Origin: Amoebidium appalachense | Taxonomy: Eukaryota; Protista; Ichthyosporea | Assembly (NCBI GenBank): GCA_963693365.1 | Contig: CAVNZM010000008.1 | Location: 9,304,818-9,368,817, forward strand | Direction: 5' to 3' | DNA: 64,000 nucleotides | In this document: positions 992 through 52,443 of the stretch, one piece after another | Position numbering within the stretch: the first letter of the stretch is position 1 | Layout: the number at the start of each line of letters is the position of its first letter | Notes under the pieces: model-generated | Told to the model about the DNA's origin: nothing | Seen by the model: only the letters and a program-made list of their open reading frames with translations | Databases searched by the model: none | Translations under genes and position numbers: made by a program

Positions 992-2887
992 TTTCGTTGT
1001 TTAGGAGAACCCGCAACCTGTGTTTTAGCACTGACGTATGGGGGAGAGAGTGGCTCAAAAAAAAAAAGCGAACTTCCACAAGAAACCAACGCCAAAGGAC
1101 GCTGCTTGGTATATTTAGCTATTGGCAAAAACGAATCCTGCTTCTGGTTGTATCTGCGCACGTACATTAAACAAAAAATAAGGCACGGATTTGTAACGAT
1201 GTTTTAAGACGTAAAACACCAACACCGCAAAAAAAACTTTTAGAGTGGATTTTTTCTTTTCTTTCAAAGCCTTGACTCGGTCAGCTGGCGGAGGCTCGCA
1301 AAGCTGCCCTGGAATGGAAACCTTGGGTCTCCATAAATGGCTAACGAGCCATAGCACCCATTCGGCATTGAAACGGGACCCTGCATTCCATGGGTGACAC
1401 TGTGCACCAGGACAATGATGTTCAAAGCTGAGCTCTAAAAGAAAAATTACATTGTCAAGCTTTAAGATTGCATTTGAATTAGATAAGCCGTGTACCTCTC
1501 TGTAAATATATGTATATTCACATTGATTACGCATGTACACAATAAAAAGAAAGATTGACAAATGTGTGGGCGCCTGCCTACTGCCATCTCAATCTTCCAT
1601 GGGTTATTGGTGAGCTTCGTCAATGGAATGCGGTGATGGTGTAGCGTTGTTGCCGTCTTTCCAGTGGGCCCGGGAAAGGTATACCTGCGCTTGCGCGAGC
1701 ATGAGGCTCTGGTTCAGTGTCACAGAAAACGGACAACAATATCATTACACATTACAAAAAGGCTCCAAACTAAAATATAGCATCTCTTTTGATATTTCTT
1801 AAGATAACTGAATTTATTAAAAAATCTGAAGCAGCTTAGAAGGCGTTGCGCAACGAAGTAGACCTCGTGGAAGCCCACGTGCGCACCTGGTATCACAGAA
1901 AGCAGCAGCTGATTAGTTTAATATCACGAAGTTGTTTTAGACCCAGCATTGAGGGCGTGCTATAAATTGGGCATGTTCGATTTCTGTGGATCAGTTTTGG
2001 AGGTCTACAGAACGTCAATATCATTTGTGCCCAAGAGGTGAACGATGTGAGGTAATCTTGTTAAAACTTCCCGAGATTTGGAGTGTATCTGCCAGGGGCT
2101 GTGGCCGTAGCTGACACGGAGAAATTATACGTGTGCCAATAAACAGATACGCCAATGCCAACAACAGAAAGTCATCCACATTAGCACTAGTGGATTCAAC
2201 ACAACTTCGAACGGAAATTTGCATGTCAAGCTTGGCCTACATCTGGTAATGCAATCGTAAAAACGGGACTCAACATTCTTACAGCAGCACAGTGTGTCTG
2301 CGACCAGAGATAACATCAATAAGAATTCTGCAACATGGTGAGTGCCCCTTGTCTTGACTTGTTAGGGCACGGTCATCCTTGCTGCATGCATCTCTGACCT
2401 CTTTAACTCTCTCTGAGTTGTTATTCTCCTTGTGTCGTGTAGCAAGGCGCACGTTTATTTTGGTGCACTGAAGTAATACTGTTGTGGTTTTGGTTTGGCC
2501 CTGAGTTACGTTTTGGCCAACTATCAAGAGCGAACTTTTTCCCGGGTTGTATTGATCAGTGTGTTCCCAGCAAAAGGCGCACAACACGAATAGTACTTTT
2601 TTCTCCATGCTGAACCAGCGCTAATGCCACGAACAAAGGAATGGGGCATAGACAAACACCAGGGCAGACATAATATAGTCTCGGCCTGCAGTCACGTTCC
2701 ATTTTCGTTTTTGGTTTTGAAGGATTGACGTGCACACGGTGCTGGATCCCGAGCGAAAAACTGATGCTTTTTGTGAACTTTTCATCCCCGCCAGCCCGTA
2801 ACTGCCATACCCGTATCCTACACACGCCCTGGCCAGCGCCCCCCTGTCGTTACACAACATGCAGCCGTTAATGGGACTCAACATGGG

Positions 2888-4342
2888 TTGTCAAGAGGGG
2901 GATTGAACCAGGTGCTCTACAGTTCTACAACATCCCATGCTGTATCCGTTCAAGCACGCCTGTTGAACATCCGTGGATCACAGACAGTGGGTGCCACCGG
3001 TTCACAGACGAATAGCAGTAGCACATATCAACACACGGGCACATATGGCCAGCACAGACCCACTCAGAGCCAAACACAGCAAGGGCAACTAAACCAAGCA
3101 GTGAATCACGCATACCAGCCACTACAAGTAGCCGGGAATGGTTCCGTGGCGGATCAATATGGCCAACAACAACCCCGACGAACGAGTCACGAGCAACACG
3201 TAGGGGCAAGCAGTGGGAAAGGGACTAGTCACTTTCAAGCAGGGGGAGGCTATTCCTTCCAGTCGACGGCTGGGAAATTAGACAAACAGCAGCCGGCACC
3301 GATACCGACACGTCAAACGTCTGTAAACGGAAGAAGTACCTCTTCGTTGAACACGTTTTCAGCCACGTCCCTCACCGTCGGTTCATCCTCGTATTTGGGC
3401 TTTGCTGACAGCGGTGCGTACGGCAACGGTGCTTACACACCTAGCAACGCCAGCCTCAGTGGCGCCAACACACCGGTGGACACACAACATGGCTCCACGG
3501 CGAATAATTCACGGACGGCGCAGATGCTTGCACAGGGAAGACCTCTTCCCCTTGGTGTGTCGACGTCCGGGTCACTTAGTTCGTTACATCACGCTCAGAT
3601 GCGCTATTCAAGCGGCATGTGCTCTGCGTCACAGCAAGGTTCACGTGTTGCATCTACGGAACTACACCCGCACGAACAGCGGGCGGGAGCTGTGTCGGAT
3701 TTGTTGGGTGTTGGTAGCGCAAAATGGGTCAACCAGAGCTTCCAACATGTGCAAATAGCACCTCGGTTTATGTCTTTATCGCTGCCACTTCAGACACACG
3801 TGGATTTGTCTGAGCTCGGGATAACAGAGGATCTCTTGCGCGCCGTGGCAAACTACACACGACAACACTGGGACCTCTCTCGCCAGTATTCGTACGAGTT
3901 CCTATCGGGGTTTATTCGTGAGCTGTGCGAGAAGATGGAATGTGACCTCGTGGTGTGTCTAACGGGCATGGTGTACACGGATAGGCTACGCGAGAAATTC
4001 CCGGATGCGGGTGCAAATGCAGACGCAAAACGTGTTTTTGTCATGGGGATGTTGTTGGCCTCAAAGTTTCACAGCGACCGCCCATACAACAACAAGGCCT
4101 GGGCACAGGTATCGAAAATGGCGCTTCCTCTTCTCAACCGGATGGAGGCGCAGTTTTTTGAGTCCCTTGATTTTCACATGAATGTTTCTACGGCAGATTT
4201 GGCGAAAATTCTTGAATGCCTTAAAACCCCACTTCGCCCGCTCAAGGATGTTGTCCAGAAAGTGGCCGAGCTGGAAGCGGCCGCTGAAAGGATGGCCCCT
4301 TCGCGTCTTTTGTCTGAAAGTAGTGCTGTTCGTAGTGATTGA
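2888..4342 (+). CDS. Pho80/Pcl/CNPPD1-type cyclin with long Q/S/G-rich disordered N-terminus; true start uncertain
   Basis: C-terminal cyclin box: GMVYTDRL...KRVFVMGMLLASKFHSDRPYNNKAWAQVS...LNRMEAQFFESLDFHMNVS. The ORF opens at a TTG; the ATG at 2883 would join this frame if the G5 run near 2897 were G6. Confidence 0.85.
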   Translation: MSRGGLNQVLYSSTTSHAVSVQARLLNIRGSQTVGATGSQTNSSSTYQHTGTYGQHRPTQSQTQQGQLNQAVNHAYQPLQVAGNGSVADQYGQQQPRRTSHEQHVGASSGKGTSHFQAGGGYSFQSTAGKLDKQQPAPIPTRQTSVNGRSTSSLNTFSATSLTVGSSSYLGFADSGAYGNGAYTPSNASLSGANTPVDTQHGSTANNSRTAQMLAQGRPLPLGVSTSGSLSSLHHAQMRYSSGMCSASQQGSRVASTELHPHEQRAGAVSDLLGVGSAKWVNQSFQHVQIAPRFMSLSLPLQTHVDLSELGITEDLLRAVANYTRQHWDLSRQYSYEFLSGFIRELCEKMECDLVVCLTGMVYTDRLREKFPDAGANADAKRVFVMGMLLASKFHSDRPYNNKAWAQVSKMALPLLNRMEAQFFESLDFHMNVSTADLAKILECLKTPLRPLKDVVQKVAELEAAAERMAPSRLLSESSAVRSD

Positions 4343-7783: not shown

Positions 7784-9234
7784 AAGACGTCTGCACTCAT
7801 TCTACAGGATGTCTATGAGAGATACCGATACATATTATATAGATGTGTGTAAGATGCATTATACACGCAAGTAAGTTGACACAAGGCGCTCGTGGGATGG
7901 GCGTAGAGATATGTTAAAGATGTACTGCAGAGATCTTAGTACAATCTTTATCCTCTCTTAATCCCGTATGGCCATGCAACATTTGCGAAACGAACTGATT
8001 GCGTTAGGATGTCGTCAGGATATATCACAGCTAGGCAGTAGATCATCTAAGGAGATCTTTGGAGAGTTCTTTTGTAGCGCTTTTGGCCATCCCAATTATA
8101 TCTTCAAGACAGGCCATGTCTGTGCATGTGATATGCTAACGCAATCTTAGGCATGTATTGGTGATACCTTTCTGCGATCTTCACGCCCTATTTGGGGTAG
8201 CTTAAAGATGTTCAGAGTTGCAATTAGCTATTGTGTGAGGATTACTTTAGGACCTCTTTAAGACGTCTGCACTCATTCTACAGGATGTCTATGAGAGATA
8301 CCGATACATATTATATAGATGTGTGTAAGATGCATTATACACGCAAGTAAGTTGACACAAGGCGCTCGTGGGATGGGCGTAGAGATATGTTAAAGATGTA
8401 GTGCGGAGATCTTAGTACAATCTTTATCCTCTCTTAATCCCGTATGGCCATGCAACATTTGCGAAACGAACTGATTGCGTTAGGATGTGCACAGGATGTC
8501 GTCAGGATATATCACAGCTAGGCAGTAGATCATCTAAGGAGATCTTTGGAGAGTTCTTTTGTAGCGCTTTTGGCCATCCCAATTATATCTTCAAGACAGG
8601 CCATGTCTGTGCATGTGATATGCTAACGCAATCTTAGGCATGTATTGGTGATACCTTTCTGCGATCTTCACACCCTATTTGGGGTAGCTTAAAGATGTTC
8701 AGAGTTGCAATTAGCTATTGTGTGAGGATTACTTTAGGACCTCTTTAAGACGTCTGCACTCATTCTACAGGATGTCTATGAGAGATACCGATACATATTA
8801 TAGATGTGTGTAAGATGCATTATACACGCAAGTAAGTTGACACAAGGCGCTCGTGGGATGGGCGTAGAGATATGTTAAAGATGTAGTGCGGAGATCTTAG
8901 TACAATCTTTATCCTCTCTTAATCCCGTATGGCCATGCAACATTTGCGAAACGAACTGATTGCGTTAGGATGTGCACAGGATGTCGTCAGGATATATCAC
9001 AGCTAGGCAGTGGATCATCTAAGGAGATCTTTGGAGAGTTCTTTTGTAGCACTATTGGCCATCCCAATTATATCTTCAAGACAGGCCATGTCTGTGCATG
9101 TGATATGCTAACGCAATCTTAGGCAAGTATTGGTGATACCTTTCTGCGATCTTCACGCCCTATTTGGGGTAGCTTAAAGATGTTCAGAGTTGCAATTAGG
9201 TATTGTGTTAGGATTACTTTAGGACCTCTTTAAG
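7784..9234. repeat. Three near-identical tandem copies (476, 487, 485 bp) in the left subterminal region
   Basis: AAGACGTCTGCACTCATTCTACAGG restarts at 7784, 8260 and 8747; copy 1 lacks an 11-bp block (GCACAGGATGT). Confidence 0.95.
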
Positions 9235-9774
9235 GGTTTAATGGGATCGATTTGGATGATCTTTAAGTGTTCCCTGGGATACAAAAGCAAAGCACATATC
9301 GCTAACGAGCTCAGCCACGGCCTCTTTACCACCCTGTCAATGCCGATTACCCAGGACCACGTTCCGTGATGCGAGGGTTAGCTCAATATATACGGCGGGA
9401 AAAGGGATTGCGCATTTGATTGTGGGATAGATTACTCCAACGTTTTTGATTGGTTGTTTTTTAGGATCGAATTTCACACAGCATTCACAATGAAGGCGTC
9501 ACAAGGTCACGCTTTTATTGAAACATGAAACATGAAGGCGTCGCGCAGGTGCGTGCGAGATGATAGCCAATGGAAACAAAGATTTACTGGAGGAGTGCAA
9601 AACAGAATCCGAAGCACTGTTATCTTACAATCATGATCCGTATAATGTAAGTAAAACTGGGGCATTCAACTGCCAAATACAGAAGTTTTAGTTGTAATAA
9701 TATTTAAGGTACCTATAAATTAGGCGAGATACTTTGGCAAACGGTGCAATGCCTGCGCGGAGCAAGTGGCCGGT

Positions 9775-10387
9775 TGTTGTATAATATGATCGTGTGTCTG
9801 TGACAAACAATATGTTTATAAATGAACGGGGTTGACTAGACCACGCTTTGCTTAGTTACGTGCTAGTCCTACTTACACCTAGTAAGCCGAGCACACTGAG
9901 TAAGCTCTGAAGCCCCCGACATGCCCTTATAACGGAGCTCGCACAGCGGCTCAGACATGCGCATCGGTATGTGCTTTTTTGGCTACGAGAGCCAATCACA
10001 TACGGTTCACGGTTCTGTCCCATGGCTATCACGGTTCCAATAAACCTATTGAGCCAATCGGGTGACAGTACTTGATTATCGATGCATTCCACAGTCATAC
10101 CTCACGCGGCTACTTGCATATTTTCCCATGATAAAACTATAACTTAACGCTCATGGTTCCTCTGCTACGTGTCGGTCCCATGTGGCTATTATATCTGTTT
10201 TCCCATGAATAATCCTGCAAGTTGCACGTGCACATACGTTTAACTCCATGCTCATGCGCACAAGACTGGGAGGGACATGCATACTGGCCTACCTAAGATC
10301 AAACACAGTGGTATATATACATGTACACGTGTGCGTATATCTCAACCTGTGTACATCCATACTAGATATCCGGTATAATATACCACA
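9775..10387 (-). repeat. 3' LTR
   Basis: TGTTGTATAATAT...ATAATATACCACA; only one mismatch to the other LTR noticed by eye (ccacgCtttg vs ccacgAtttg). Confidence 0.97.
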
Positions 10388-10427
10388 CGCCCCACCGTAA
10401 AAAGAAGTATGTCGTCCTCGACATACG

Positions 10428-13400
10428 TCACCATGCTCCACACAATGAGTCAATGTATCCGTGGAACGATGCAAGGTCACCTCTGCGTTGGTGGAACTCT
10501 CGGATCTTGTCCGGGCAGGCTAAGTCTTTCTCAGACTCCCAAGAGGTGAATGAATCATCTTTGCCTGCCCACTTGATCTGGTACCACTTGTAAGGGGTGG
10601 ATTGCTTGCGCCGTTTCTGAATTCTTACGTCAAGCACCTTTTCCACCACCCACTCGTCCGGCAGAACCTTGTTGAAGTTGTGACTATCGCCCGTGTCCAG
10701 GAGGTGAGAGAGATCTTGAGGCCGAATTCTATTTTGCTCACTCAATTCAAGCTGAATATCGTCGACGTGCCACTTAGATTTCTTCATAGTTGCTAAGCTT
10801 CGGATCTCGTACGTAACCGGGCCGACCCTTTTGACGATTTCGTAACCCGTAATCCACCGTACATCCCAGGCACCGATATTTTTGGCTTGATTCCGAACAC
10901 GTATCCGTGCACCCTTCTCAAATTCACGAGCCACCGAGGGGCCTGGGGGCTCTCGTACGGCACGTTGCTGGACCACAGCACGGAGCAGAGGCAGACGGGC
11001 TAGTAACTCTCGCCGGTATGCCTTCCACTCTGGGTCCTTGAGTGCCGGGTGGTTACTGTTAAGAAGGGCAACGTCAGGGAATTGTGTTGCTTCTTGCCCG
11101 TACACAAGATAATACGGTGTACATTGCAAAATTTTGTGTGTTGTTGTGTTGTATGCATGTGTAACCACCGGCAACAGAGTGTCCCAATTAGTGTGCTCAT
11201 AATTAACGTACTTTGAGAGTGCATTATTAATAAATCTATGAGACCGTTCATTGGAACCGTTGCTTTGTGGGTGATATGCAGAGGTGCTCACTTGTGCAAT
11301 ATTTGCTATACGGCAAATCTCAATAATTAGCTCATTGAGAAATTCTGAACCCTGATCACTCAAGAGTGTACGAGGGGGGCCGTGTATATAGCAAATTACA
11401 TTCATGAGTGCATGTGCAACATTAACGGCATGCTTAGATTGGATGGGCACAGTGATTAAATACTTCGTTGCCATATCCATAAACACACAAATGAAAGTAT
11501 TACCATTTTTCGTTTCTGTGAACGGACCCATAAGGTCAACAGAAACACGAGAGAACATTTTTAAATTTTCGTATCTCTGTTCAAATGGCCTACTTCTCAA
11601 GTGTGGGTTATCGTTACGGCCTTGGCACTGTGTGCAGGCATTCACATAAGCAGTGATATCTTTGTGCATGCGTGGCCAATAATAATTGTATAATCTTTCG
11701 TAAGTTCGTTCAATGCCAGTATGAGCCCCCCCGTCGTGCACACTTCTTAATAAATCAGCACGAAGGATTTCGGGCACATACAGGCAACGACGACCATCCT
11801 TAGCCACATGATAAAGCACGTCATCCTCTATCACACACATTTGTGCTATTTTCTTAACCTTTTTGTATCCGAAATACTCAAGATTAAGACCGTGTGCAGC
11901 TCGTTCCCCCCCTGCCTGCCATTCCCGTTTGGCCTCGGCATCGAGGGAGGCAAGCCACCGTAGCCACGTGATTATATCCTTACACATTTTGTCCCCCCCT
12001 GTGCCATCATAATTGCTTCCTTCTGATAGCCGGCACCACCGAGTGCAGAAAGGGAGGGCAGGCCGGCTTGACTGAGTGCAGAAATTTGTGCACATTTCAA
12101 GCGGTCTGGATCGAAAATGTGTGTGAATTCGAGTGCATCGCCCCAATCAACAAACACTTCGGCTGGTTGCGAGCTAAGCTCGGATAAATCTGCTGTGAGA
12201 ACCTCTTGTAATTCCTTTTTCACATCCCACCTTTCCAGTGTTATGTTTTCGTTCTCATGCAGAATATATCCTATACGGCTTAACCCATCAGCATCGTGCA
12301 TGGTAGGGCCAGGACGGTAGTATAGATCGAAATCATACTCCTGCATTTCCAAAGCCCACCGTTGCATCCGTTCGTTTGCTATCCGTTTGACACCTTTAAG
12401 AGAAAGACAGGGCTTATGGTCACTTTCCACAATTGTATTTACTCGACCATACACGTACACCCTAAACTCTTTCAGTGCCCAATAGATTGCATGCGTTTCT
12501 CGTTCGATGTTGCTCCACCTACGTTCGGTAGGTTGAAACATCCGGGAGGCATATGCCACCGTGCGGAACTTGCCATCATTTTGTTTTTGATACAGGCAAG
12601 CCCCTTCCGAGAACCGACTAGCATCACAACGAATAAGAAACTGACCCCCCGTGGGGGAAAGATCGGGCAGGGCAAGCACTTCCTCCGATAACGCCGATTT
12701 TAAATCTTTAAAAGAGCGATCTAATTCGTCCGTCCATTTTAACCGTCGGTGTTTTTCTCCGTAACACTCGGCATTCATGGGTCGGGCTCGCTCTGCATAA
12801 TTTAAAATGTGACGGCGGAGATAGGAAGTAATACCCAGAAAACCCCGGAGTTGGTGTAGTGTGTTTGGTACCGGCCAATCTTTCACTGCCTGAACCTTTT
12901 TCGGGTCGGGCCGAATGCCATTCACACCTACAATCCAACCCAAAAACGGTATTTCCGTTAGCCCAATATATGTCTTTGCCCCATCGAGCTTAACACCATA
13001 TTCACCGAGACGGGTGAAAAGTCGGTCAAGCTTCTGTATTAATTCTGTTTCGGTGTGTGCACCCACAGCTAAATCATCGGCATATATCACCACATCATCG
13101 GCCAGCGGGGCCAAAATCTGTGTCATGATAGATGCTAGCTGGGACGGGGAAGTACTGAGCCCCTGTGGTGCCACACAATAACGATACTGCACACCAGCCA
13201 CAGAAAATCCTGTTTTTTCACGTGACTCAGCGTCTAGCAGTATTTGGTAAAAGGCACCCGACATATCAGCTTTACAGAAATACTTATACCCAGCCAACTT
13301 CTCTATTTGTTGTTGCAAGTTGGGCATGGGCCAGGCAGATTTTCGAATTTGCTTGTTAAGAGCACGAAAATCAGTCAGCAGACGGTATTTTCCGTTTGGT

Positions 13401-14920
13401 TTTCGTATTACGAAGGTGGGTGAATTATACTGACTGTGTGCTTGTTCCATCTGCCCTCTATGACACATATCCTCCACGATCTCCTTTGCAGCCTGCTCTT
13501 TCACTTGTTCCAACCTCCACTGTTTTAATCGAATCGGTGGGTTATCTCCCGTGTCTATGTGCATGGTGAATCCTTTAATCTGAGGAAATTCGTCGGGGTC
13601 CGTAGTGGTGAAGCAACGAGAGTGTGCTTCTAATAGTTTCTTAACCTCCGGAAGCATACTCTGAGGCACCCTATTCCAATCAAAACCGTGGGGAGCCTGG
13701 CCGGCATCGTGTGCACCCCCACCCGAAATTTCCGAAATTTTTCGCGGGGGGGGTTTTTCATGATCAACGGCACACATTGATTGGTCGATCGGTGAGTGTA
13801 TCGGACCGCCTCGTGTCCCACTCACATGCCCTTCGTGCCCACACATGTTATCGGTAGGCACCCGGCCCGGTGGCACGGCCGGAGGTGAATTGGGTAGGCA
13901 ACCTTCTCCACCCCCCGTTGCCCACCTGATGCACTGCGCTATTGCACCAACGACGGTTTGTGTACGACTGGAGTGGGGTTCGGCTTGCAAAACACTCAGT
14001 TCGTGTATGTACTCATGTCGGCTCGTAGGAACGAAATGACCGATGGTACCGAACACGTTCAAATCCGGACCCACACCATTTTCGCACACAACAGCAATAG
14101 ATTTATCCACACTAAGTTCACAGATGGTGGGGGGGAACTTATCTCGAAATTCACGAGTAGGCTCGAAGATACCGAGGGTGCCAGCAGCAGCAGCAGCAGC
14201 AGTCACCTGCACCGTTGCACGTAATACACATCCAAAGCCAGATTTGACGGTGGTGTCGTGCTTGACGGTAACAGGACACATTGTGTAGGGGGTGTGCAAA
14301 GATGACGTCGGCACCACCATCCCCGACACCAGTGTTAGTGAGTGTGCTTGATGATTAGTGGTGGCAATGTGTTTGTTGGCAAAATCGTTCCCAATAATCA
14401 TGTCATGCTTAATATTTTTAATTACTAAGCAAGGCCACATGAATGTTTGAGAACCGAGGCATAACGGGAGCATCACTTCACCACTCACAGCTAGAGCTTT
14501 ATCGTTTTTTCTTACAGAAGTAACAATAACATCCGAGGGTTGCAAAGCAAACTCCTGCATGTGTCGGGAAAAAAACAGCTTCACTAACCACCGTGAATGA
14601 TGCCCCAGTGTCAAACAATGCAAAGTATTTTTCATTACTCAACGTAACATTAACATAGATACGTCTTCCTGCATTGCATATGGCACTTATATCGAACACT
14701 TTTCTTATTCTATCGAGTGTTCGAAGTTTCTTTGTGGGGGGGATAGGTGTGGGGGGGTGGGGGGTCGGGGGTCGGGGGAAGGGGGCTCGGAGGGGGGAAT
14801 ATCAGAAGAAGCCGGGGCAGAAGCACATGGTATAGGCACATTTTTAATTACTTTTTCGTGACCCACTGGGTCACAATGTGCAATACATGCCGTATTCGTG
14901 CTTCCAGCACCGGCAATTAC
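10428..14920 (-). CDS. pol: Pro-Pol polyprotein (aspartic protease, RT, RNase H, integrase, chromodomain), split in this assembly by 1-nt shifts at homopolymers
   Basis: PR: ALFDTGAS (ORF 14499-14699) continuing to IIGND after the A7 run at 14569-14575. RT: YRLLTDFRALN, PQGL, YADD. RH: CDAS, ESDHKP, DADGLSR. IN after the C7 run at 11993-11999: H-X4-H..C..C, VDLMGP, LSDQGSEF, HPQSNGSNER. Chromodomain: WVVEKVLD..YQIKWAG..SWESE. Confidence 0.95.
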
Positions 14921-16799
14921 CTATTTATCACTTTGCTTGCCCTTCTTCTTGGCAGCTCGGGTGGGGCAATCTTTAAAACGATGCCCCGGCTGCTTGCAAG
15001 CCCAACAATTGGGCCCCCTCTTATCTTTCTTATTTTCCTTAGCCCATTTGCCCCCCCCCATTAGATTTACCCTTACCACCAACATTACCCCCACTACCTC
15101 CGTGGCCACCCCCGTGACCACCACCACCACCACCATGCCCCCCACTACCACCACCCATCTCATCTACAGCACCCACATTACGGTTACATTTTAAATTGTG
15201 AGCACCCACATCAGCCTCATACCGTCGGATGACACGGCCCATGGCTTGTTTGAGGGTGGTTGCAGCCCGGGCCTCGGAACAAAGGTCCGGGTAGTCGTTG
15301 AGGGTACGTTGGTAATGATGAAGCATAACCTCGGGCATGTCCTTGAGACCCGAGTTGGAGATGATGCAATTAAATTTCTTGTGGAATGTTTTTATCGAGG
15401 CCCGAGTGTGCATAAAACGAAGCTTGTTCAGCTCGTTAAAATGCTCCTCCTTACGTTCCTTGTCTAAATACTTCTCAAGGAACTTAGCCCAAAAATCGTC
15501 GATGCCGGTGCACGTGGAAAGGTCGACGTTGTCGGCAGCATCTCGGGGGTCCCCGGGGCCCATGCACATACGAATAAACATTAACGTGCGATTTAAGCCC
15601 ACCAACTCCATAATACAAAAGAAAATTAAATGATGTTGGAGTTGTTTGTAGAATTCGTCGATATCGGCATCTGCCTCGAGCATAGGACGGGACTGAATTG
15701 CTGCTGAGGGGATGTGTTGTATCTTTTCCTTCCCCTCCCGGTCGTCACCGTTGCCGTCGTTACCGTCACCGTCATCACCACCGTCACCGTCGTCGCCACC
15801 ACCATCACCACCACCGTTAGCACCTCCGGCACCATTAGCACCACCGGCACCACCGTCAGCACCACCGTCCGGGGGAGGTGGGGGGCCACCGCCACCTGCA
15901 TTACCATCCCCATTTTCGTTGGCAGCAGGAGGGGGGTTGTTATGCCCCCCCCGGCCACCACCACGTCCACCCCTACCACCACGGCCAGAGTTCTTACGGG
16001 GGCCCCGTCCGGCACGAACCCACGAGGGGAGCATGCTTGGATGAAATTTTCGAGGGCCCCGGTTACCATAATAAGTAACCACTAGGTCGAGCTCACCACG
16101 ACTAAGAGTCACTAATTGATTGATAAATTCATGTGACTTAGTGATGGGGGAAGACTGCCCTGAAAGGCACGCGTAGTTTTGCCTGGAAGTGAATACATTC
16201 GCGAGGGCGAGTAGTTGTTGGTGGAGCAAGGTGAGTGCCGTCGACGAACGGTACAGTGCCGTGCGCGCTGTACAGCTGGCAAACTTCGATACCAAAAATG
16301 CCAGCAGCACGAACAGAAGAAGACACCCAAGAACGCACCAGCACCAAGCTGCCAGGCTCACGCCCGTCTTGTTGTGCAAATTTGCATACTCCGTTAGGGC
16401 GCGTATGAGGGCGTCTGGTGCCTCGGCTTGCGTTTGCGTTGACCTCGACATATAGCCCGTGGAGAAGGTCGACTGATGAATGTCGATTGTCTTCAGGTGG
16501 CAAGTCTTCGGGGTCAAATGATTGGCCGTAGTCGGTTTCCCCTGAATGAAAAGAGAAGCAGTATTGATTGTCGTGTTGCAAGTCGTGTGAACGGAAGTAG
16601 ACACGGTCGAGCAACGGAAGGTCTGCTCCAGGAGGGTGCCACGGTGAAGAGCCGGGGGGGGAAAGGGGAACATTATAGCCGAGTTCTTCAAGGAAAATGA
16701 GGTCGGCGTTTCTAGCTTCCCCCCCATGCAGGCCACTAGGGCCGGCATTGTTGTCACCAAGGTGGTTAGACATGTTAGGACCCAAACAACTAAAAACAT
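14921..16799 (-). CDS. gag: Gag with long N-terminal extension, G/D-rich linker, capsid-like domain and CCHC zinc knuckle
   Basis: ORF 15039-16901 (first ATG 16799) contains FWAKFLEKYL..ELNKLR..SIKTFHKKF. The knuckle CWACKQPGHRFKDC is in the adjacent frame after the C9 run at 15051-15059; TAG at 14923-14921. Confidence 0.85.
16138..16773 (-). CDS. Overlapping second frame in the element leader (MSNHLGD..., 211 aa), unknown function; may be the true Gag N-terminus
   Basis: Open from ATG 16773 to 16138 with globular-looking composition; it ends just after a homopolymer (G5 on +, 16146-16150) where a 1-nt change would fuse it to Gag. Confidence 0.5.
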   Translation of the reverse strand: MSNHLGDNNAGPSGLHGGEARNADLIFLEELGYNVPLSPPGSSPWHPPGADLPLLDRVYFRSHDLQHDNQYCFSFHSGETDYGQSFDPEDLPPEDNRHSSVDLLHGLYVEVNANASRGTRRPHTRPNGVCKFAQQDGREPGSLVLVRSWVSSSVRAAGIFGIEVCQLYSAHGTVPFVDGTHLAPPTTTRPRECIHFQAKLRVPFRAVFPHH

Positions 16800-16849
16800 A
16801 GTACTTGCTTGATACGAGCACACTTGCAGCGCAAGAACTAGCGCTGCAA

Positions 16850-16865
16850 GGGGGTGTAGCTCAGC
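16850..16865 (-). promoter_or_regulatory. Primer-binding site complementary to a tRNA 5' end (Ala-like), followed by a 10-bp hairpin (16823-16850)
   Basis: Element strand directly after the 5' LTR reads GCTGAGCTACACCCCC; its complement GGGGGTGTAGCTCAGC is a typical tRNA-Ala acceptor/D-stem start. Hairpin CTTGCAGCGC-N8-GCGCTGCAAG. Confidence 0.75.
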
Positions 16866-17478
16866 TGTTGTATAATATGATCGTGTGTCTGTGACAAACA
16901 ATATGTTTATAAATGAACGGGGTTGACTAGACCACGATTTGCTTAGTTACGTGCTAGTCCTACTTACACCTAGTAAGCCGAGCACACTGAGTAAGCTCTG
17001 AAGCCCCCGACATGCCCTTATAACGGAGCTCGCACAGCGGCTCAGACATGCGCATCGGTATGTGCTTTTTTGGCTACGAGAGCCAATCACATACGGTTCA
17101 CGGTTCTGTCCCATGGCTATCACGGTTCCAATAAACCTATTGAGCCAATCGGGTGACAGTACTTGATTATCGATGCATTCCACAGTCATACCTCACGCGG
17201 CTACTTGCATATTTTCCCATGATAAAACTATAACTTAACGCTCATGGTTCCTCTGCTACGTGTCGGTCCCATGTGGCTATTATATCTGTTTTCCCATGAA
17301 TAATCCTGCAAGTTGCACGTGCACATACGTTTAACTCCATGCTCATGCGCACAAGACTGGGAGGGACATGCATACTGGCCTACCTAAGATCAAACACAGT
17401 GGTATATATACATGTACACGTGTGCGTATATCTCAACCTGTGTACATCCATACTAGATATCCGGTATAATATACCACA
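16866..17478 (-). repeat. 5' LTR
   Basis: 613-bp direct repeat of 9775-10387. Confidence 0.97.
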
Positions 17479-18134
17479 CCGGTGCGTTGAATTTACCCTA
17501 AATAAACACATTAAAAAATAAAAAATAAAAAAATGCACAAAAAACGCAAAAAAACGCAAAGATATATATCGCATACCTTACGAAGCTCCTAAGAATATCC
17601 TCACGCTATACTAGAGCTATACTTACTATTCTGTCAGTACGTCCTGAATAAATACGCCAACCATACCTGAAACTGCAGTGCGGATCGCCGACCATAAAAC
17701 TCCTTACACCCCACCACCCTAAGATACACTCCCTCCTCACCTTCTTGCAGTCGAATATAGCAGCTGTTCAAGTTGTATGGGAATATTTTTCTTTTCACTG
17801 GAAGAGGCAGATCTCCCCGTGGAGTCCCCCGTGCTTCAGCAGGCGTTAAGCCCGCTAGGAACAACTGCAGCTGTAGCGGCAGGAACTTTAGGCAATTGCC
17901 ACGTCCTTCAAGCCTGGGGCTGGGGTCGAAGTCCCCTTCTGATGCAAAATAGGCATCCAGCTTTGCAAGGTGCAGGCCTTTCTTATCCTGCAAGCCTGTG
18001 TTTGGGACAAAAGGATTCGAGTAGATCAGAGTAATCTTCCGCAGCACAGCGGCGGGCCCGCCGGGGAGAGGGGGGGGGGGGGGGGGGGTGAGCCATCACG
18101 TTTGATGCCTCCCCCCCCCCCCCCCCCCCCCCCC

Positions 18135-19591: not shown

Positions 19592-21612
19592 CACAGAACA
19601 GCTTCTAGCACGAGACATTTACCACAAAGTTTATGGGGGATGGTGAATGTGCCCCTGAAGTACGAGGGTCACACGAAAAAAACACAACGTTGTAGCTCGT
19701 ATAGAACCCCCCTTGTAGCATAGTATATGTACATATGTTACCTAGACATTATTGGTTTTTTCAATAACTACCCACAGAACAGCTTCTGGCACGAGACCTT
19801 TACCACAACGTTTATGGGGGGGATGGTAAATGTACCCCTGGAGTACGAGGGTCACACGAAAAAAACACAACGTTGTAGCTCGTATAGCACCCCCCTTGTA
19901 GCATAGTATATGTACATATGTTACCTAGACATTATTGGTTTTTCAATAACTACCCACAGAACAGCCTCTAGCACGAGAGATTTACCACAAAGTTTATGGG
20001 GGGGATGGTGAATGTGCCCCTGGAGTACGAAGGTCACACGAAAAAAATACAACATTGTAGCTCGAATAGAACCCCCCTTGTAGCATAGTATATGTACATG
20101 TGTTACCTAGACATTATTGGTTTTTTCAATAACTACCCACAGAACAGCTTCTAGCACGAGACCTTTACCACAACGTTTATGGGGGGGATGGTGAATGTGC
20201 CCCTGGAGTACGAGGGTCACACGAAAAAAACACAACGTTGTAGCTCGTATAGCACCCCCCTTCTAGCATAGTATATGTACATATGTTACCTAGACATTAT
20301 TGGTTTTTCAATAACTACCCACAGAACAGCCTCTAGCACGAGAGATTTACCACAAAGTTTATGGGGGGGATGGTGAATGTGCCCCTGGAGTACGAGGGTC
20401 ACACAAAAAAAACACAACATTGTAGCTCGAATAGAACCCCCCTTGTTGCATAGCATATGTACATGTGCTACCTAGACATTATTCGTTTTTTCAATAACTA
20501 TCCACAGAACAGCTTCTAGCACGAGAACTTTACCACAAAGTTTATGGGGGGGATGGTGAATGTGCCCCTGGAGTACGAGGGTCACACGAAAAAAACACAA
20601 CATTGTAGCTCGAATAGAACTCCCCTTGCAATTGTAGCATAGTATATGTACATGTGTTACCTAGACATTATTGGTTTTTTCAATAACTACCCACAGAACA
20701 GCTTCTAGCACGAGAACTTTACCACAACGTTTATGGGGGATATGGTGAATGTGCCCCTGGAGTACGAGGGTCACACGAAAAAAACACAACGTTGTAGCTC
20801 GTATAGAACCCCCTTTGTAGCATAGTATATGTACATAGTAAGTTACCTAGACATTATTGGTTTTTTCAATAACTACCCACAGAACAGCTTCTAGCACGAG
20901 AAATTTACCAGAAAGTTTATGGGGGGGATGGAGAATGTGCCCCTGGAGTACGAGGGTCACACGAAAAAAACACAATGTTGTAGCTCGAATAGACCCCCCT
21001 TGTAGCATAGTATATGTCCATGTGTTACCTAGACATCATTGGTTTTTTCAATAACTACCCACAGAACGGCTTCTAGCACGAGACATTTACCACAAAGTTT
21101 ATGGGGGGGATGGTGAATGTGCCCCTCGAGTACAAGGGTCACACGAAAAAAACACAACGTTGTAGCTCGTATAGAACCCCCCTTGTAGCATAGTATATGT
21201 ACATATGTTACCTAGACATTATTGGTTTTTCAATAACTACCCACAGAACAGCCTCTAGCACGAGAGATTTACCACAAAGTTTTTGGGGGGGATGGTGAAT
21301 GTGCCCCTGGAGTACGAGGGTCACACAAAAAAAACACAACATTGTAGCTCGAATAGAACCCCCCTTGTAGCATAGCATATGTACATGTGTTACCTAGACA
21401 TTATTCGTTTTTTCAATAACTACCCACAGAACAGCTTCTAGCACGAGAACTTTACCACAAAGTTTATGGGGGGGATGGTGAATGTGCCCCTGGAGTACGA
21501 GGGTCACACGAAAAAAACACAACGTTGTAGCTCGTATAGAACCCCCTTTGTAGCATAGTATATGTACATAGTATGTTACCTAGACATTATTGGTTTTTTC
21601 AATAACTACCCA
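19592..21612. repeat. Satellite array, 11 copies of a ~182-bp unit
   Basis: CACAGAAC(A/G)GC(T/C)TCT(A/G)GCACGAGA restarts at about 19592, 19773, 19955, 20138, 20320, 20503, 20692, 20878, 21060, 21242 and 21425. Confidence 0.97.
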
Positions 21613-21727
21613 CATGCGGCATGTGTTACTTTCACGTTATTGGTTTCCTAGCACGGGATATTCAGCACACAGTTGGGGATGTGGGGGCAGTGTACACCTC
21701 AATATTGGTAAGGTGGTGGTGGGTGGG

Positions 21728-25400: not shown

Positions 25401-27304
25401 TAAAATCAATAATTTGAATAGAAAAGGGGTTTTGCTCCATTAATAAATAACTTGATAAACAAAGCGACAAGCAATTCTTGTAAAGCAACATGGGATGTCC
25501 GGCGCCTACCAAATCTTTCGTAGCGAAAACAGGCAAAAACCATAATTTCATCATAGATGATCGACCTCGAGGCAAGGTGGTTAGAGGCTATGCAAGACGG
25601 GTTTTGATGATTTTAGCGATGTAGGCGTTGTCGGAGCACCCCGACTGCTTATATCATTTTTGCGCGCCTTTTTATTTCTTAAAACTTTTTCTTATGGACG
25701 AAAACCAACTTTCTAAGTAAAATCGGGGCCTAACTGCTTTTGAGAGGCTGTCGGTCTGAGATTTTGGCCTGTCACCGCCTGAGCGGCCCTTACCTTGGCC
25801 CTTACTTTTGGCGCAACCAATCACAAGATTCGAATTGTTTCGGTGAGCCATATAAGGTTAGGCAGAATTTGAAAAAAAAAACATTTCTAAACCAGTCTAT
25901 ACTTACTTATTCAGTCTTTCACAGAACACGCACATCACTTTGATTCGTCAAGAATCTACCGAGACATTTCAGGATACATATGTAGTCTCTATGTATGCGC
26001 CTGTCGAGCGTGGTGAAGTAAAAGGCGGCATTCAAAAAAGCGTTGAATCGGCCAACCAGACTGCAGTAGCCTACCTATGTTAGTTTTTTTTTTTTCAAGT
26101 GACGGCCGCTGATCATGAACTTTGTCCAGCCGCCAACTTTGTTCGAAATTTACCCCACTCACAGAGGAATGTAGTGATTGTAAAGGACTATGACATCTAG
26201 CCAATACAAGCACTCGAACGGATAGACTCGCTATTCCGCTGAATTTCTTCAGCAATTTACGCCAATTAGAAGATTTCTATTAATTGTCTTATAGGGGCTT
26301 CTTACGGCGACTGCGGGCCGCGGGCGGCTTGTTTACCGTGGGACTTTCGCGGCCCGGACACTCGCATCATTTTTTTTCTTTCGGTGACCACCGTTTGAGA
26401 ATTTTCTACGTTTCTACGTTTTGGTAGTGAAGGATTGGCTAAGATCTCTAGAGAGAACTTTTATGTTTTTTTGCCGTGTTTAGGCATACACAATTACCAA
26501 AGTTTGCAACAAACATCGAAACCAACTCGCTCACCTCTTGCTTACTTTAACCGGTGCGTACCTCCCCTCTGTGTGTTTGGACCAACATAAGGGCCCTTGA
26601 TCTTGATCTCGAAAGAATTATCCTGAGAGTTAAAGCATTTTCTGTGTGTGAAATTATCAGTTTTCGTTTGATTATGCTCGCAGTTTGGTGCTGTTGGGCA
26701 TCTAAAGAGCGTTCGCCTTTGTGTTTTACTTTCACAGGTGGTTTGTTGTGGGTTCACAGTATATAGTGACTTTCTGTTGTTTTTGTGTTAACCCCCACGT
26801 GAGTGACTGGGCCTCTCTTTTTTTGATGTAGGCATGAGCTTCTACACCGTCGCTCTTTCCTTTTTTCGTCCACGTTGTGTTATCTTTTTATGTGCTAGGA
26901 AGTATAGAACTGTTCGCATCTTGTATATCCTGGTTAGCTTAAAGCTGTAGCCGTTTTGAGGTGAGGTGACATATATACCCGATTCATACTGAAGGAACAA
27001 GGCACACACACACAGAAACATACGCTGCTAGGTAGTTATAGCTTGCCCTTGAGAGAATAGTTGCATCATCAAGCTGTGTTGGTTTGACCTTTGCGCCTCT
27101 TTCTGGTTGATGTTTTCCAGCTTCAGGTTCTTAGACCGGCACCCAAAGTATGCGACTTCCGTTGGGTCGGGATAGGAATCATTGAAACTCTGCTAGACTT
27201 CCCTGCTTGCTGCCTTGCAAAAGGTTTCTATGGCTGATCACACACTTTTGTTTTCCATCTCTCTGTGCAGCTCTCACTCACCTGAATTCCCTCGCAGAGA
27301 TAAA

Positions 27305-28414
27305 ATGTCTATGGTTGACGAGAAACTTGCAGCCGCGCTGCATGACAGCGACGACGAGGATTCCCATCATGATTCGGACGCAGAAGTCGATCACGGAGCG
27401 ATTACCAAGCAGGGCCTTGGGGAGGTTTCTGGTGAGAAGGACAAGAAGTCTAAGCCTGTGTGGTATGCGCTTGTACAAGGGACTCTGTTCTGGTACAAGA
27501 GCCAAAGTTTCTCGCAGCTGAAGGGTGATCTCCAGCTGAAGGGGAGCAGCATTGAACATGCTACCAAGCCACAACCTCACTCGCTGGTGATCAAGGTGGA
27601 TGGGAAGGTGTGTGTAACCTTGGAGTCCCGGAAAACCAATAGCCTGGTTGAATTGCTCGAATATCGATTGTTTAACATTGTTGTCTGGAGGTCGAAGGTT
27701 TTGAGCTAGGTGTCAAGCTTGCTTGCGCCAGTTTTGGCTTCTAGCTTGTGCGCCTGTCAGTGTGTCGGTGTGGGCACCACATTTTGATGTGTTTACTCGG
27801 GATTTGAGGTAAAGACTTGGATAGGGGAAAAGGGCGCATGCTGTTCTGGATGCTGTTCTGTAATGGGAGGAGATAATAAGAGGAGTAGTCGTTTGCCCTG
27901 CGCCTCCCCCCTCCAGCCCTTCCCCCCTCCGCCTCCGATCCCCCCCCTCCCCCCACCCACCCACCCACTCTTTTTTTCTCGTTCCCTCTTTTCTCCAACC
28001 TTTCCCCTTGCGACGAATACTCTTTTATGTGCTCTTTTGCTCAAATTCTGCATCTTGGTTTCCGTCGTGAGCATGTCGTTTTCCGTGGTGAATTACTTAC
28101 GAATTCGTCCGAAAAATTCTAACCCCCACCCCCTGCCCTGCCCCCCCTCTCCGCCCTGGAGGTTTGGCTCTTATGTGTCCCTTTGTTGTTGCACACCCGC
28201 ATTATGCTTTCGATCGTGAATGTTTACCTCACATTATTTGTTGGAAACGTCCCCCCCCCCCCCCCCCCCCCTCCCTCCCCAAGGAATGGCTTTGTTTATT
28301 AGGCGTACTCTTTGTGTGGTTTGCACTCTGCATTATATTGACCGATATCAATGGGTATTTCGTGCTCTATAAATCATTCTGAACCCCCCCCCCCCCCCCC
28401 CCTCCCCCCGGCCC

Positions 28415-37549: not shown

Positions 37550-47961
<10,412 letters not shown>

Positions 47962-51454: not shown

Positions 51455-52443
51455 TTGCTAAACAGTTCTGCTAATCATTACTAATTAGTAGGCAGGCTCA
51501 GTCGTTGGTTTATGGATCTCACGGGGGGCCAATACCCATGCGAAAACGGAATAAGGCCATAACAAAATGGTCAAACCAACTCCCCCACCTCCACCCACCC
51601 CAGGCTGGGATGGAACACAACCGCTCCCGCTCCGGCTGCATCATGGTGCATGCATGCACGCGATGCCGACGTCGACAAGTTTCTTTGCAGCGACCGCGTC
51701 GGAGCTCTTTCGAACGACGGATATGACACCCATTCGATCGCATCAAAGTCTCAATTTCACTCTCAAACCCGGCCAGTTCCATTTTTGCATTCCGATTCGC
51801 ACCCCTCCGTTTCCAGGCCCGGGTGATAAGGAGGCCTTGGTGCCAAATTGCAATGCGGCTGTACGTTTGCGTGTATCAGGTGTGTGTATCTTTTGAGGTG
51901 TAGACGGTGATTCATGTGCGTGTATTGTATCATCTTTAGCTAGTACGTGAGTTTTGCGCTTGCTTTTTTCTTGGCCGTATGCTACGTATAGGTATAGGCA
52001 GCCTTTTACACAATTTGTAGCGGAGCCCAGGTGAAAGACTGCTTTGGCTATCAAACCAAAACTTGGCTTCACATAGCTGGTGGTAAGCGAACCCTTCTCT
52101 TTTCACGTATAGATAGTTACTACTTTCTTTATGCATCTTCATTTTCGTGTAGGAAAGTGCGTACCAACCAAACACTCAAGTATTTAACAGAACGCGTTCT
52201 CGTTCGAGCATACGTGCACGCGCAGCTGCAGTGTCACACAAGTACAAGCAACACCAGGCGTGCGCACACAACAAACGATCGGTTAAATTTCCTCCGAGTT
52301 TTCTCATGTCCCGCGCAGCCTCTTTGATACCTCTTTGATACATAGGTGACATCAGCTCCCTTTTGGGGCCCTTTCATGTCTCCTTCACCAGCTTGAGACA
52401 CAAACACGCACGCGCAACATCAGAATGCTACACTCAGAAAACG

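What the first reader, a model, noticed from the sequence alone, without database searches (positions are those of the whole stretch)
16823..16867. Young Gypsy element appears to be primed by a 5' tRNA-Ala fragment cut in the D-loop
Seen: flush against the 5' LTR the element reads GCTGAGCTACACCCCC, with no canonical TGG-starting PBS. Its complement GGGGGTGTAGCTCAGC has its 3' end facing the LTR, and a perfect 10-bp hairpin abuts the far end of the site. Known: eukaryotic tRNA-Ala genes commonly begin GGGGGTGTAGCTCAG. Most LTR elements use the CCA 3' end of a tRNA; copia and Ty5 use a tRNAiMet fragment ending in the anticodon arm; Tf1-type elements self-prime. Inference: reverse transcription here uses a ~16-nt 5' tRNA fragment, needing D-loop cleavage by a host nuclease or the element's RNase H, which would link 5'-tRF production to retrotransposition.
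Basis: partly seen in the sequence, partly recalled or inferred. Interest (0 to 1): 0.85.

Follow-up and report, generated by a model that had tools for sequence, protein, structure and literature searches.

The report
Retrotransposon primed by tRNA's 5' end
A recently inserted jumping gene in a single-celled eukaryote carries, exactly where copying must start, a perfect 16-letter complement of the front end of a tRNA instead of the usual tail end, so it likely starts copying itself from a short tRNA fragment cut in the D-loop, a kind of primer I did not find described for these elements.

Summary
A 7.7-kb chromodomain Ty3/Gypsy element (minus strand, 613-bp LTRs differing at one base, 5-bp target duplication) has GCTGAGCTACACCCCC flush against its 5' LTR and no TGG site. 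The complementary 16-mer is a tRNA 5' end: 77 of 99 exact matches in viral contigs are nt 1-16 of a called tRNA (65 Ala); a control 16-mer gave 0 of 5. Laid contigs list no substitution in the site, including a copy whose neighbouring hairpin has changed. Corrections: the 10-bp hairpin overlaps the site by one base and is 8 bp in another form; Ala is likely, not certain; the host's tRNA could not be read. Best reading (0.58): a 15-16-nt tRNA 5' fragment primes minus-strand synthesis, possibly cut by the element's RNase H as Tf1 cuts its self-primer. Priming and cleavage are inferred, not shown. No precedent in ten literature searches. New variant of truncated-tRNA priming.

The parts
16850..16865 (-). 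Primer-binding-site position: exact complement of tRNA nt 1-16 (Ala-type), zero gap from the LTR
   Evidence: no substitution listed in contigs covering it
16866..17478 (-). 5' LTR, 613 bp, TG...CA
9775..10387 (-). 3' LTR, one mismatch to the 5' LTR (window 16937)
17479..17483 (-). Target-site duplication ACCGG, upstream copy
9770..9774 (-). Target-site duplication ACCGG, downstream copy
16823..16850 (-). Hairpin 3' of the site: 10-bp stem in the window copy, 8-bp core in two other forms; 8-nt loop
16815..16824 (-). AGTGTGCTCG, a repeat of LTR 16988-16979; predicted to fold back on the site and extend the hairpin
   Evidence: (41 of 1000 shuffles give as long a shared word)
16977..16987 (-). 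Candidate (vestigial?) 11-nt self-primer in the LTR: pairs with the site with one G:U and one bulge, 3' end flush with the LTR border
17018..17022 (-). TATAA, 35 nt upstream of the candidate self-primer (one of three TATAA in the LTR)
16953..16961 (-). LTR segment complementary (9 bp, one G:U) to 16842-16834 in the hairpin; resembles one arm of the Tf1 'pretzel'
10388..10398 (-). G-rich tract at the polypurine-tract position
16138..16773 (-). 211-aa ORF upstream of gag, no known family
14960..16946 (-). Long open frame holding gag; the CCHC knuckle lies in the next frame after a G run
11972..14638 (-). pol part A: RT (YADD) and RNase H with catalytic motifs present; the protease motif lies just upstream in another frame
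10428..12146 (-). pol part B: integrase (HHCC, D-D-E, p58 C-terminal) and chromodomain

Best explanation
This chromodomain Gypsy element has the complement of tRNA nt 1-16 as its primer site and likely primes minus-strand DNA synthesis from a 15-16-nt 5' fragment of a host tRNA, probably tRNA-Ala, that would end in the D-loop. Shown: the element's anatomy, the site's position and its exact register on tRNA nt 1-16. Inferred steps: (1) the tRNA 5' end anneals to the site, which replaces the tRNA's own acceptor-stem and D-stem partners (predicted -34.5 kcal/mol, enough to open the local fold-back); (2) a 3'-OH is made at about nt 16, either beforehand by a host nuclease (tRF-5a size) or after annealing by the element's RNase H at the duplex edge, the reaction Tf1 performs on its own 5' end; I favour RNase H, weakly; (3) plus-strand strong-stop DNA copies the primer to its 5' end, which would re-template the site in each cycle and explain why the match stops exactly at tRNA nt 1. 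The cut could lie a base or two either side: in 54 of 99 matches the next two tRNA bases could also pair with the LTR's terminal CA.
For: Zero gap to an LTR end fixed by a second LTR and a target duplication. 77 of 99 exact database matches are tRNA nt 1-16 against 0 of 5 for the control. No TGG site. In 681 bases laid with 4 of 24 runs, no substitution is listed between 16717 and 16936, while 23 positions vary in 16590-16716; X6's main contig (16780-16894) has no other letter; an X6 contig with a changed hairpin loop and flank fits from 16849 onward with no listed change; an X3 contig with 20 differences in 140 nt loses similarity for 144 nt and rejoins for 25 letters over the site and LTR end. 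No form of the site matching the LTR 11-mer (base 16858 missing, change at 16863) is listed, which active self-priming would be expected to produce (inference). RT and RNase H motifs are present. Precedents for the parts: 3'-truncated tRNA primers in Copia (PMC6317226, PMC10886601); RNase H cutting an RNA at the edge of its duplex with the PBS in Tf1 (PMC7175516); 14-16-nt 5' fragments cut in the D-loop with a 3'-OH (PMC7681095).
Against: The host's tRNA genes were not seen; every tRNA with the exact 16-mer came from viral or prokaryotic-type contigs, and the eukaryote-type tRNA-Ala seen (L186) differs at nt 5 and 16. The diverged X3 contig rejoins at 16852, so it does not fit tRNA nt 1-2. Conservation rests on four contigs from three runs, all close kin, X3's main form and X18 did not cover the site, and contigs drop rare variants. 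No unrelated element with this arrangement among 68 loci from two pattern scans or 38 RT relatives. An imperfect self-primer and one pretzel-like arm exist. No primer, cDNA end or small RNA was observed.
Confidence: 0.58

Rival explanations
1. The element self-primes like Tf1: the transcript starts near 16988, its first 11-12 nt pair with the site and RNase H releases them. The tRNA match is a relic of a one-time capture.
For: The best 3'-anchored duplex in the LTR is 11 nt long (Tf1's length), ends flush with the LTR border and lies 35 nt below a TATAA; it appears in the minimum-energy fold of two fragments. A 9-bp arm between the hairpin and LTR 16961-16953 beats 290 of 300 shuffles (300 of 300 when only the loop region, chosen after the fact, is used). 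Self-priming is typical of fungal and vertebrate chromoviruses.
Against: The duplex has a bulge and a G:U, -16.3 against -34.5 kcal/mol; longest perfect complement in the LTR is 5 nt, below the 10-nt criterion of PMC6317226; 15 of 150 shuffled LTRs do as well. In longer folds its probability is 0.05-0.12 against 0.64-0.70 for the local fold-back. The second arm is unremarkable (72 of 300). It leaves the five C's and the 16/16 tRNA match unexplained, and no converted site is listed. The transcription start is unknown.
Confidence: 0.17
2. A tRNA or tRNA fragment binds the site but is not the primer (packaging, dimerisation or structural cofactor, or a host-silencing handle); priming uses another RNA.
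For: Ty3 has extra tRNA-binding patches (bipartite PBS, mentioned in PMC5014426); 5' tRNA fragments target Gypsy transcripts in Arabidopsis (PMC5605234).
Against: The site occupies the bases where priming must begin; no TGG site lies nearby; a pure silencing target should be lost, yet the site is kept.
Confidence: 0.1
3. The mechanism is as in the best explanation, but the primer is another tRNA isotype or a tRNA-derived small RNA (such as a SINE transcript) with the same 5' end.
For: 13 of 78 called tRNAs with this 16-mer are not Ala, and several uncalled hits look like truncated tRNA-Asp genes.
Against: 65 of 78 are Ala; that many eukaryotic Ala tRNAs begin this way is recalled, not from a call. 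No tRNA or close copy of the motif elsewhere in the window.
Confidence: 0.1
4. Chance resemblance; the element primes in some unknown tRNA-independent way, like Skipper or Tcn2-5.
For: Chromoviruses with unexplained priming exist (PMC5006619, PMC2864245, PMC7175516). Looser versions of the motif do occur by chance (55 of 69 matches had no tRNA call; L185 has one inside a coding stretch).
Against: 16 of 16 bases in exact nt-1 register at zero gap. My estimate, assuming up to 100,000 distinct tRNA 5' 16-mers and four allowed offsets, is about 1 in 10,000 (inference, not a tool result).
Confidence: 0.03

Closest known systems
Half-tRNA priming of Drosophila copia, yeast Ty5, Osser, Bryco, Bianca and fungal Copia/Helenus (PMC6317226, PMC10886601, PMC4139406; passages read)
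   Same: Primer is a 3'-truncated tRNA that keeps the tRNA 5' part; no TGG at the site.
   Different: Those sites pair with the anticodon arm and the cut is in the anticodon stem or loop; both papers report the mode only in Copia. Here the site pairs with nt 1-16, implying a D-loop end, in a Gypsy chromovirus.
Tf1/sushi self-priming chromoviruses (PMC7175516, PMC4600332, bioRxiv 10.1101/2022.12.06.519325; passages read)
   Same: Chromodomain integrase; the primer is the 5'-terminal segment of an RNA annealed next to the LTR and cut at the duplex edge; an 11-nt look-alike and one pretzel-like arm are present.
   Different: The 5'-terminal segment that fits perfectly is a tRNA's, in trans; the cis candidate is imperfect; placement in the Tf1/sushi clade is unresolved.
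Canonical 3'-CCA tRNA priming, including Salpingoeca rosetta chromoviruses Sroscv1 and 2 (PMC6875170 supplement 5, part 1 of 15 read)
   Same: Site next to the 5' LTR, complementary to a tRNA.
   Different: Sroscv1 and 2 have TGG two bases after the LTR; this element has none.
Dictyostelid Skipper, SM-Tcn1, Cryptococcus Tcn2-5 (PMC5006619, PMC2864245, PMC7175516)
   Same: Chromoviruses without TGG and without a clear self-primer.
   Different: Their sites are polypyrimidine or T-rich (Skipper, SM-Tcn1) or not described in what I read (Tcn2-5); none was matched to a tRNA 5' end there.
tRF-3019 priming of HTLV-1 (as summarised in PMC7681095)
   Same: A short tRNA fragment proposed as primer.
   Different: That fragment is the CCA 3' end on a canonical site.

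Membership tests
Ty3/Gypsy chromovirus | TG...CA LTRs, 5-bp target duplication, purine-rich tract before the 3' LTR | tested here: met
Ty3/Gypsy chromovirus | PR-RT-RH-IN order with C-terminal chromodomain | tested here: met
   Pfam RVT_1, RT_RNaseH, Integrase_H2C2, rve, Chromo; protease motif seen by eye in translation
Canonical tRNA-3'-end-primed LTR element | TGG within 0-5 nt of the LTR, complement of the tRNA CCA end | tested here: not met
   no TGG in 66 nt after the LTR
Tf1/sushi group | Self-primer: 10 or more nt of LTR complementary to the PBS | tested here: not met
   longest perfect complement 5 nt, 7 with G:U; 11 nt only with a bulge
Tf1/sushi group | Three-duplex pretzel structure | tested here: inconclusive
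   one arm 10 of 300 shuffles, the other 72 of 300; arms not directly adjacent to the site
Tf1/sushi group | Transcript 5' end coincides with the self-primer | not testable with these tools
   contigs cannot show a start
Tf1/sushi group | RT phylogeny within the clade | tested here: inconclusive
   long branch, in no supported group among 31 rows, none of them a named reference element
Half-tRNA-primed elements (copia, Ty5, Osser, Bianca) | PBS complementary to the anticodon arm | tested here: not met
   match is to nt 1-16
Half-tRNA-primed elements (copia, Ty5, Osser, Bianca) | Ty1/Copia superfamily | tested here: not met
   integrase follows RT-RH
Skipper-type | Polypyrimidine stretch replacing the PBS | tested here: not met
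   site is mixed sequence with a five-C run at its far end
tRF-5a as primer (proposed) | Host tRNA begins with the 16-mer | not testable with these tools
   no genome held; no tRNA in the window
tRF-5a as primer (proposed) | 14-16-nt fragment with 3'-OH exists and is attached to strong-stop cDNA | not testable with these tools
   size class from PMC7681095; no small-RNA data
TRIMp3 / Pol III promoter-bearing LTR (Helenus) | tRNA-like A and B boxes inside the LTR | tested here: not met
   A-box-like bases lie outside the LTR and no B box follows within 140 nt (motif recalled)

The most novel reading that the evidence does not exclude
A fourth primer class caught in transition: a formerly self-priming chromovirus has swapped its own RNA 5' end for a tRNA 5' end, and its RNase H now cuts host tRNA-Ala in the D-loop at the edge of the duplex, making the primer (and a tRF-5a) itself; the decayed 11-nt self-primer and pretzel arm in the LTR are the fossil of the old mode.
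Probability: 0.28. Interest if true: 0.9.

Novelty: new variant of a known kind. Interest (0 to 1): 0.72.

Why it matters
Surveys list three primer types for LTR elements: whole tRNA, half tRNA cut in the anticodon arm (Copia only) and self-primer (PMC6317226). A D-loop-ended 5' fragment in a Gypsy element would add a fourth and give 5' tRNA fragments a direct part in retrotransposition. It offers a simple route for switching between self-priming and tRNA priming, since both use an RNA 5' end cut at a duplex edge. It also points to a blind spot: the PBS search described in PMC6317226 tests tRNA 3' ends and LTR self-complements, so elements filed as 'no PBS' can be re-screened against tRNA 5' ends at once.

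Tried and rejected
No host genome is held, so tRNA scan and copy survey were impossible. No RNA holder listed for the element; not evidence either way. Only 681 bases in 4 of 24 runs were laid; X18 did not cover the site, X3's main form left a hole there; holes prove nothing, and depths are not copy numbers. Rfam found nothing above chance in 9000-18000. Close relatives: none in viral or metagenome contigs with the single RT; best protein relatives 36% identical; 38 distant loci from an alignment query carry no such site (best 12 of 16). Pattern scans for 'tRNA-Ala 5' end followed by an LTR-like end' gave 2 + 66 loci, 1 with integrase nearby (L185), rejected because the match lies downstream of the chromodomain without an LTR. 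The RT tree (31 rows: the window and 30 of 38 loci; 8 dropped for matches of 250 aa or less) did not place the element. Antisense Pol III promoter: rejected, no B box. Bipartite PBS with a 3'-end site: rejected, no TGG near the LTR. Cyclin searches did not identify the host. Earlier findings: nothing by place or sequence; four word hits concern other kinds of site. Supplement searches for the site's motif in three papers found nothing (only 17,418 characters held for PMC6317226, one file of PMC4007536 unreadable, line breaks can hide a motif). PMC4007536, PMC11042837 and PMC13537249 gave nothing usable on this point.

Full report
THE ELEMENT. The site belongs to a 7,704-bp LTR retrotransposon on the minus strand (17478-9775). 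The LTRs are 613 bp, TG...CA, differ at one base, and are flanked by ACCGG on both sides. Pfam finds RT, RNase H, integrase and a chromodomain in that order; RT, RNase H and integrase catalytic motifs are present. gag-pol is split over several frames, and the three changes of frame examined lie at G or T runs, so they may be assembly errors (inference). The family is held by runs of several studies: 20 of 24 listed rows hold part of it, 12 at least half of its words. The host is probably an ichthyosporean, a unicellular relative of animals: a PSMD12 exon in the window is 80% and 74% identical to proteins whose gene ids begin Ihof and CFRG, which I read from memory as Ichthyophonus and Creolimax, and 99% to an unnamed transcriptome protein.

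THE OBSERVATION. The first base after the 5' LTR begins GCTGAGCTACACCCCC (16865-16850); there is no TGG in the next 66 nt. The complementary 16-mer matched 99 places in viral contigs; ARAGORN called a tRNA at 78, with the 16-mer at nt 1 in 77; 65 were Ala, 13 other or unclear types, 21 had no call. The 16-mer flush against the 3' LTR, as a control, matched 5 places, none a tRNA. The word is therefore a tRNA 5' end, in register from nt 1 into the D-loop, with nt 16 facing the LTR. These tRNAs are not the host's: no genome is held and the window has no tRNA. The one eukaryote-type tRNA-Ala called in my loci (L186) differs at two of the 16 positions. The hairpin is real (only perfect stem of 10 bp or more in the element; z = -3.35 for the 71-nt region) but shares base 16850 with the site.

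OTHER COPIES. Contigs of 4 of the 24 runs were laid on 16560-17240. No substitution is listed between 16717 and 16936, while 23 positions vary in 16590-16716. X6's main contig (16780-16894) has no other letter and lacks base 16848, which shortens the stem to 8 bp. A second X6 contig fits from 16849 across the site and then departs: its loose end keeps the same 8-bp stem with a changed loop base and flank. An X3 contig with 20 differences in 140 nt has no fit for 144 nt and rejoins for 25 letters from 16852, so it covers tRNA nt 3-16 and the LTR end but not nt 1-2. An X17 contig covers 16851-17197 with 4 other letters, three of them listed, all in the LTR. X18 and X3's main form did not cover the site. 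This is modest evidence of conservation: four contigs, related organisms, rare variants dropped.

LTR 16987-16977 can pair with the site over 11 bp with one G:U and one bulge, 3' end flush with the border, 35 nt below one of three TATAA words. Tf1 uses an 11-nt self-primer cut by RNase H (PMC7175516) inside a three-duplex pretzel (bioRxiv 10.1101/2022.12.06.519325). Here the duplex is -16.3 kcal/mol against -34.5 for the tRNA-type 16-mer; 15 of 150 shuffled LTRs give one as good; the longest perfect complement is 5 nt, short of the 10-nt rule in PMC6317226. One pretzel-like arm is better than 290 of 300 shuffles, the other is ordinary (72 of 300). The same 10-mer recurs just 3' of the hairpin (41 of 1000 shuffles) and in longer folds outcompetes the LTR segment (0.64-0.70 against 0.05-0.12), while the self-primer duplex is in the minimum-energy fold of two shorter fragments. 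Each signal is marginal and found after the fact; together they suggest a relic more than noise. Active self-priming should convert the site towards the complement of the 11-mer through plus-strand copying of the primer (inference from the standard cycle); no such form is listed.

MECHANISM. Minus-strand synthesis must start at the LTR border, so the primer's 3' end pairs at or near 16865. A whole tRNA or an anticodon-cut half would have unpaired 3' ends there, so a cut near nt 16 is required. Either a host fragment of tRF-5a size (14-16 nt, D-loop, 3'-OH; PMC7681095) anneals, or the intact tRNA anneals and the element's RNase H cuts at the duplex edge as in Tf1. Copying the primer to its 5' end in plus-strand synthesis would explain why the match ends at nt 1 and stays perfect. 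In 54 of 99 database matches the next bases are TGG and could pair with the LTR's CA, so the cut position is uncertain by about two bases. All of this paragraph is inference.

COMPARISON AND NOVELTY. It is a chromovirus by tested features; Tf1/sushi membership is not shown (tree unresolved; self-primer rule not met). It works like the half-tRNA-primed Copia elements but fails their defining features. PMC6317226 (passages and section 20) names three primer types and finds half-tRNAs only in Copia; PMC10886601 (passages) agrees; PMC4139406 (passages) lists internal-region sites for tRNA-Arg and iMet and 3'-end sites for Ala in Candida. Two choanoflagellate chromoviruses have ordinary TGG sites (PMC6875170 supplement, part 1 of 15). 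Skipper (PMC5006619, passages and section 12), SM-Tcn1 (PMC2864245, passages) and Tcn2-5 (PMC7175516, passages) are unexplained cases. Also read in passages: PMC4600332, PMC5014426, PMC5605234, PMC7681095, PMC4007536, PMC11042837; abstract only: PMC13537249. Ten searches showed no report of a PBS complementary to tRNA nt 1-16; the library lacks most subscription papers and Repbase reports, PMC11962134 was seen only as a listing, and several supplements were incomplete, so absence from print is not proven. No second family with this arrangement was found in 68 pattern loci or 38 RT relatives, collections poor in such eukaryotes.

VERDICT. Real feature, well beyond chance; tRNA 5'-fragment priming 0.58, self-priming with a relic match 0.17, non-primer binding 0.10, another tRNA-like primer 0.10, chance 0.03. 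New variant of a known kind; interest 0.72. The first test, a tRNA scan of the host genome, is quick and could refute it.

Noticed in passing
window 16773-16138 (-): 211-aa ORF upstream of gag, overlapping the long gag frame. The 23 positions that vary among copies fall 8/2/13 on its codon positions 1/2/3 (2/13/8 for the long frame), so this is likely the coding frame there. No credible Atlas hit (0.77); not scanned against Pfam.
   Followed up: partly
run X3, loose end behind window 16970: The loose letters read as the first 16 bases of the LTR (15 alike) joined to LTR position 16970: a short, internally deleted LTR lacking the TATA box and the candidate self-primer; solo relic or a non-autonomous family.
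   Followed up: no
window about 15045, 14570, 11995: The frame changes in gag-pol coincide with G or T homopolymer runs; possibly long-read assembly errors.
   Followed up: partly
window 16620, 16937, 16993, 17023: The window copy differs from the majority of contigs in runs X3 and X6 at these places; at 16937 the majority matches the 3' LTR, so the single LTR difference arose in this 5' LTR.
   Followed up: yes
window 19706-21657: About ten tandem copies of a 182-183-bp unit, alternating two types.
   Followed up: no
window 8029-8262, 8516-8749, 9001-9234: Three 97%-identical copies of a repeat of at least 234 bp, about 490 bp apart, just downstream of the element.
   Followed up: no
window 2777-4342 (+), 27197-27709 (+), 39306-39842 (+), 52339-54465 (+): Host genes: cyclin (PF08613), weak PH domain, PSMD12 exon, and a 708-aa ORF with a hydrophobic stretch and no Pfam match.
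   Followed up: partly
L185:2577-2597: A chromodomain element's 3' region holds an Ala-type 16-mer complement by apparent chance, with no LTR before it.
   Followed up: yes
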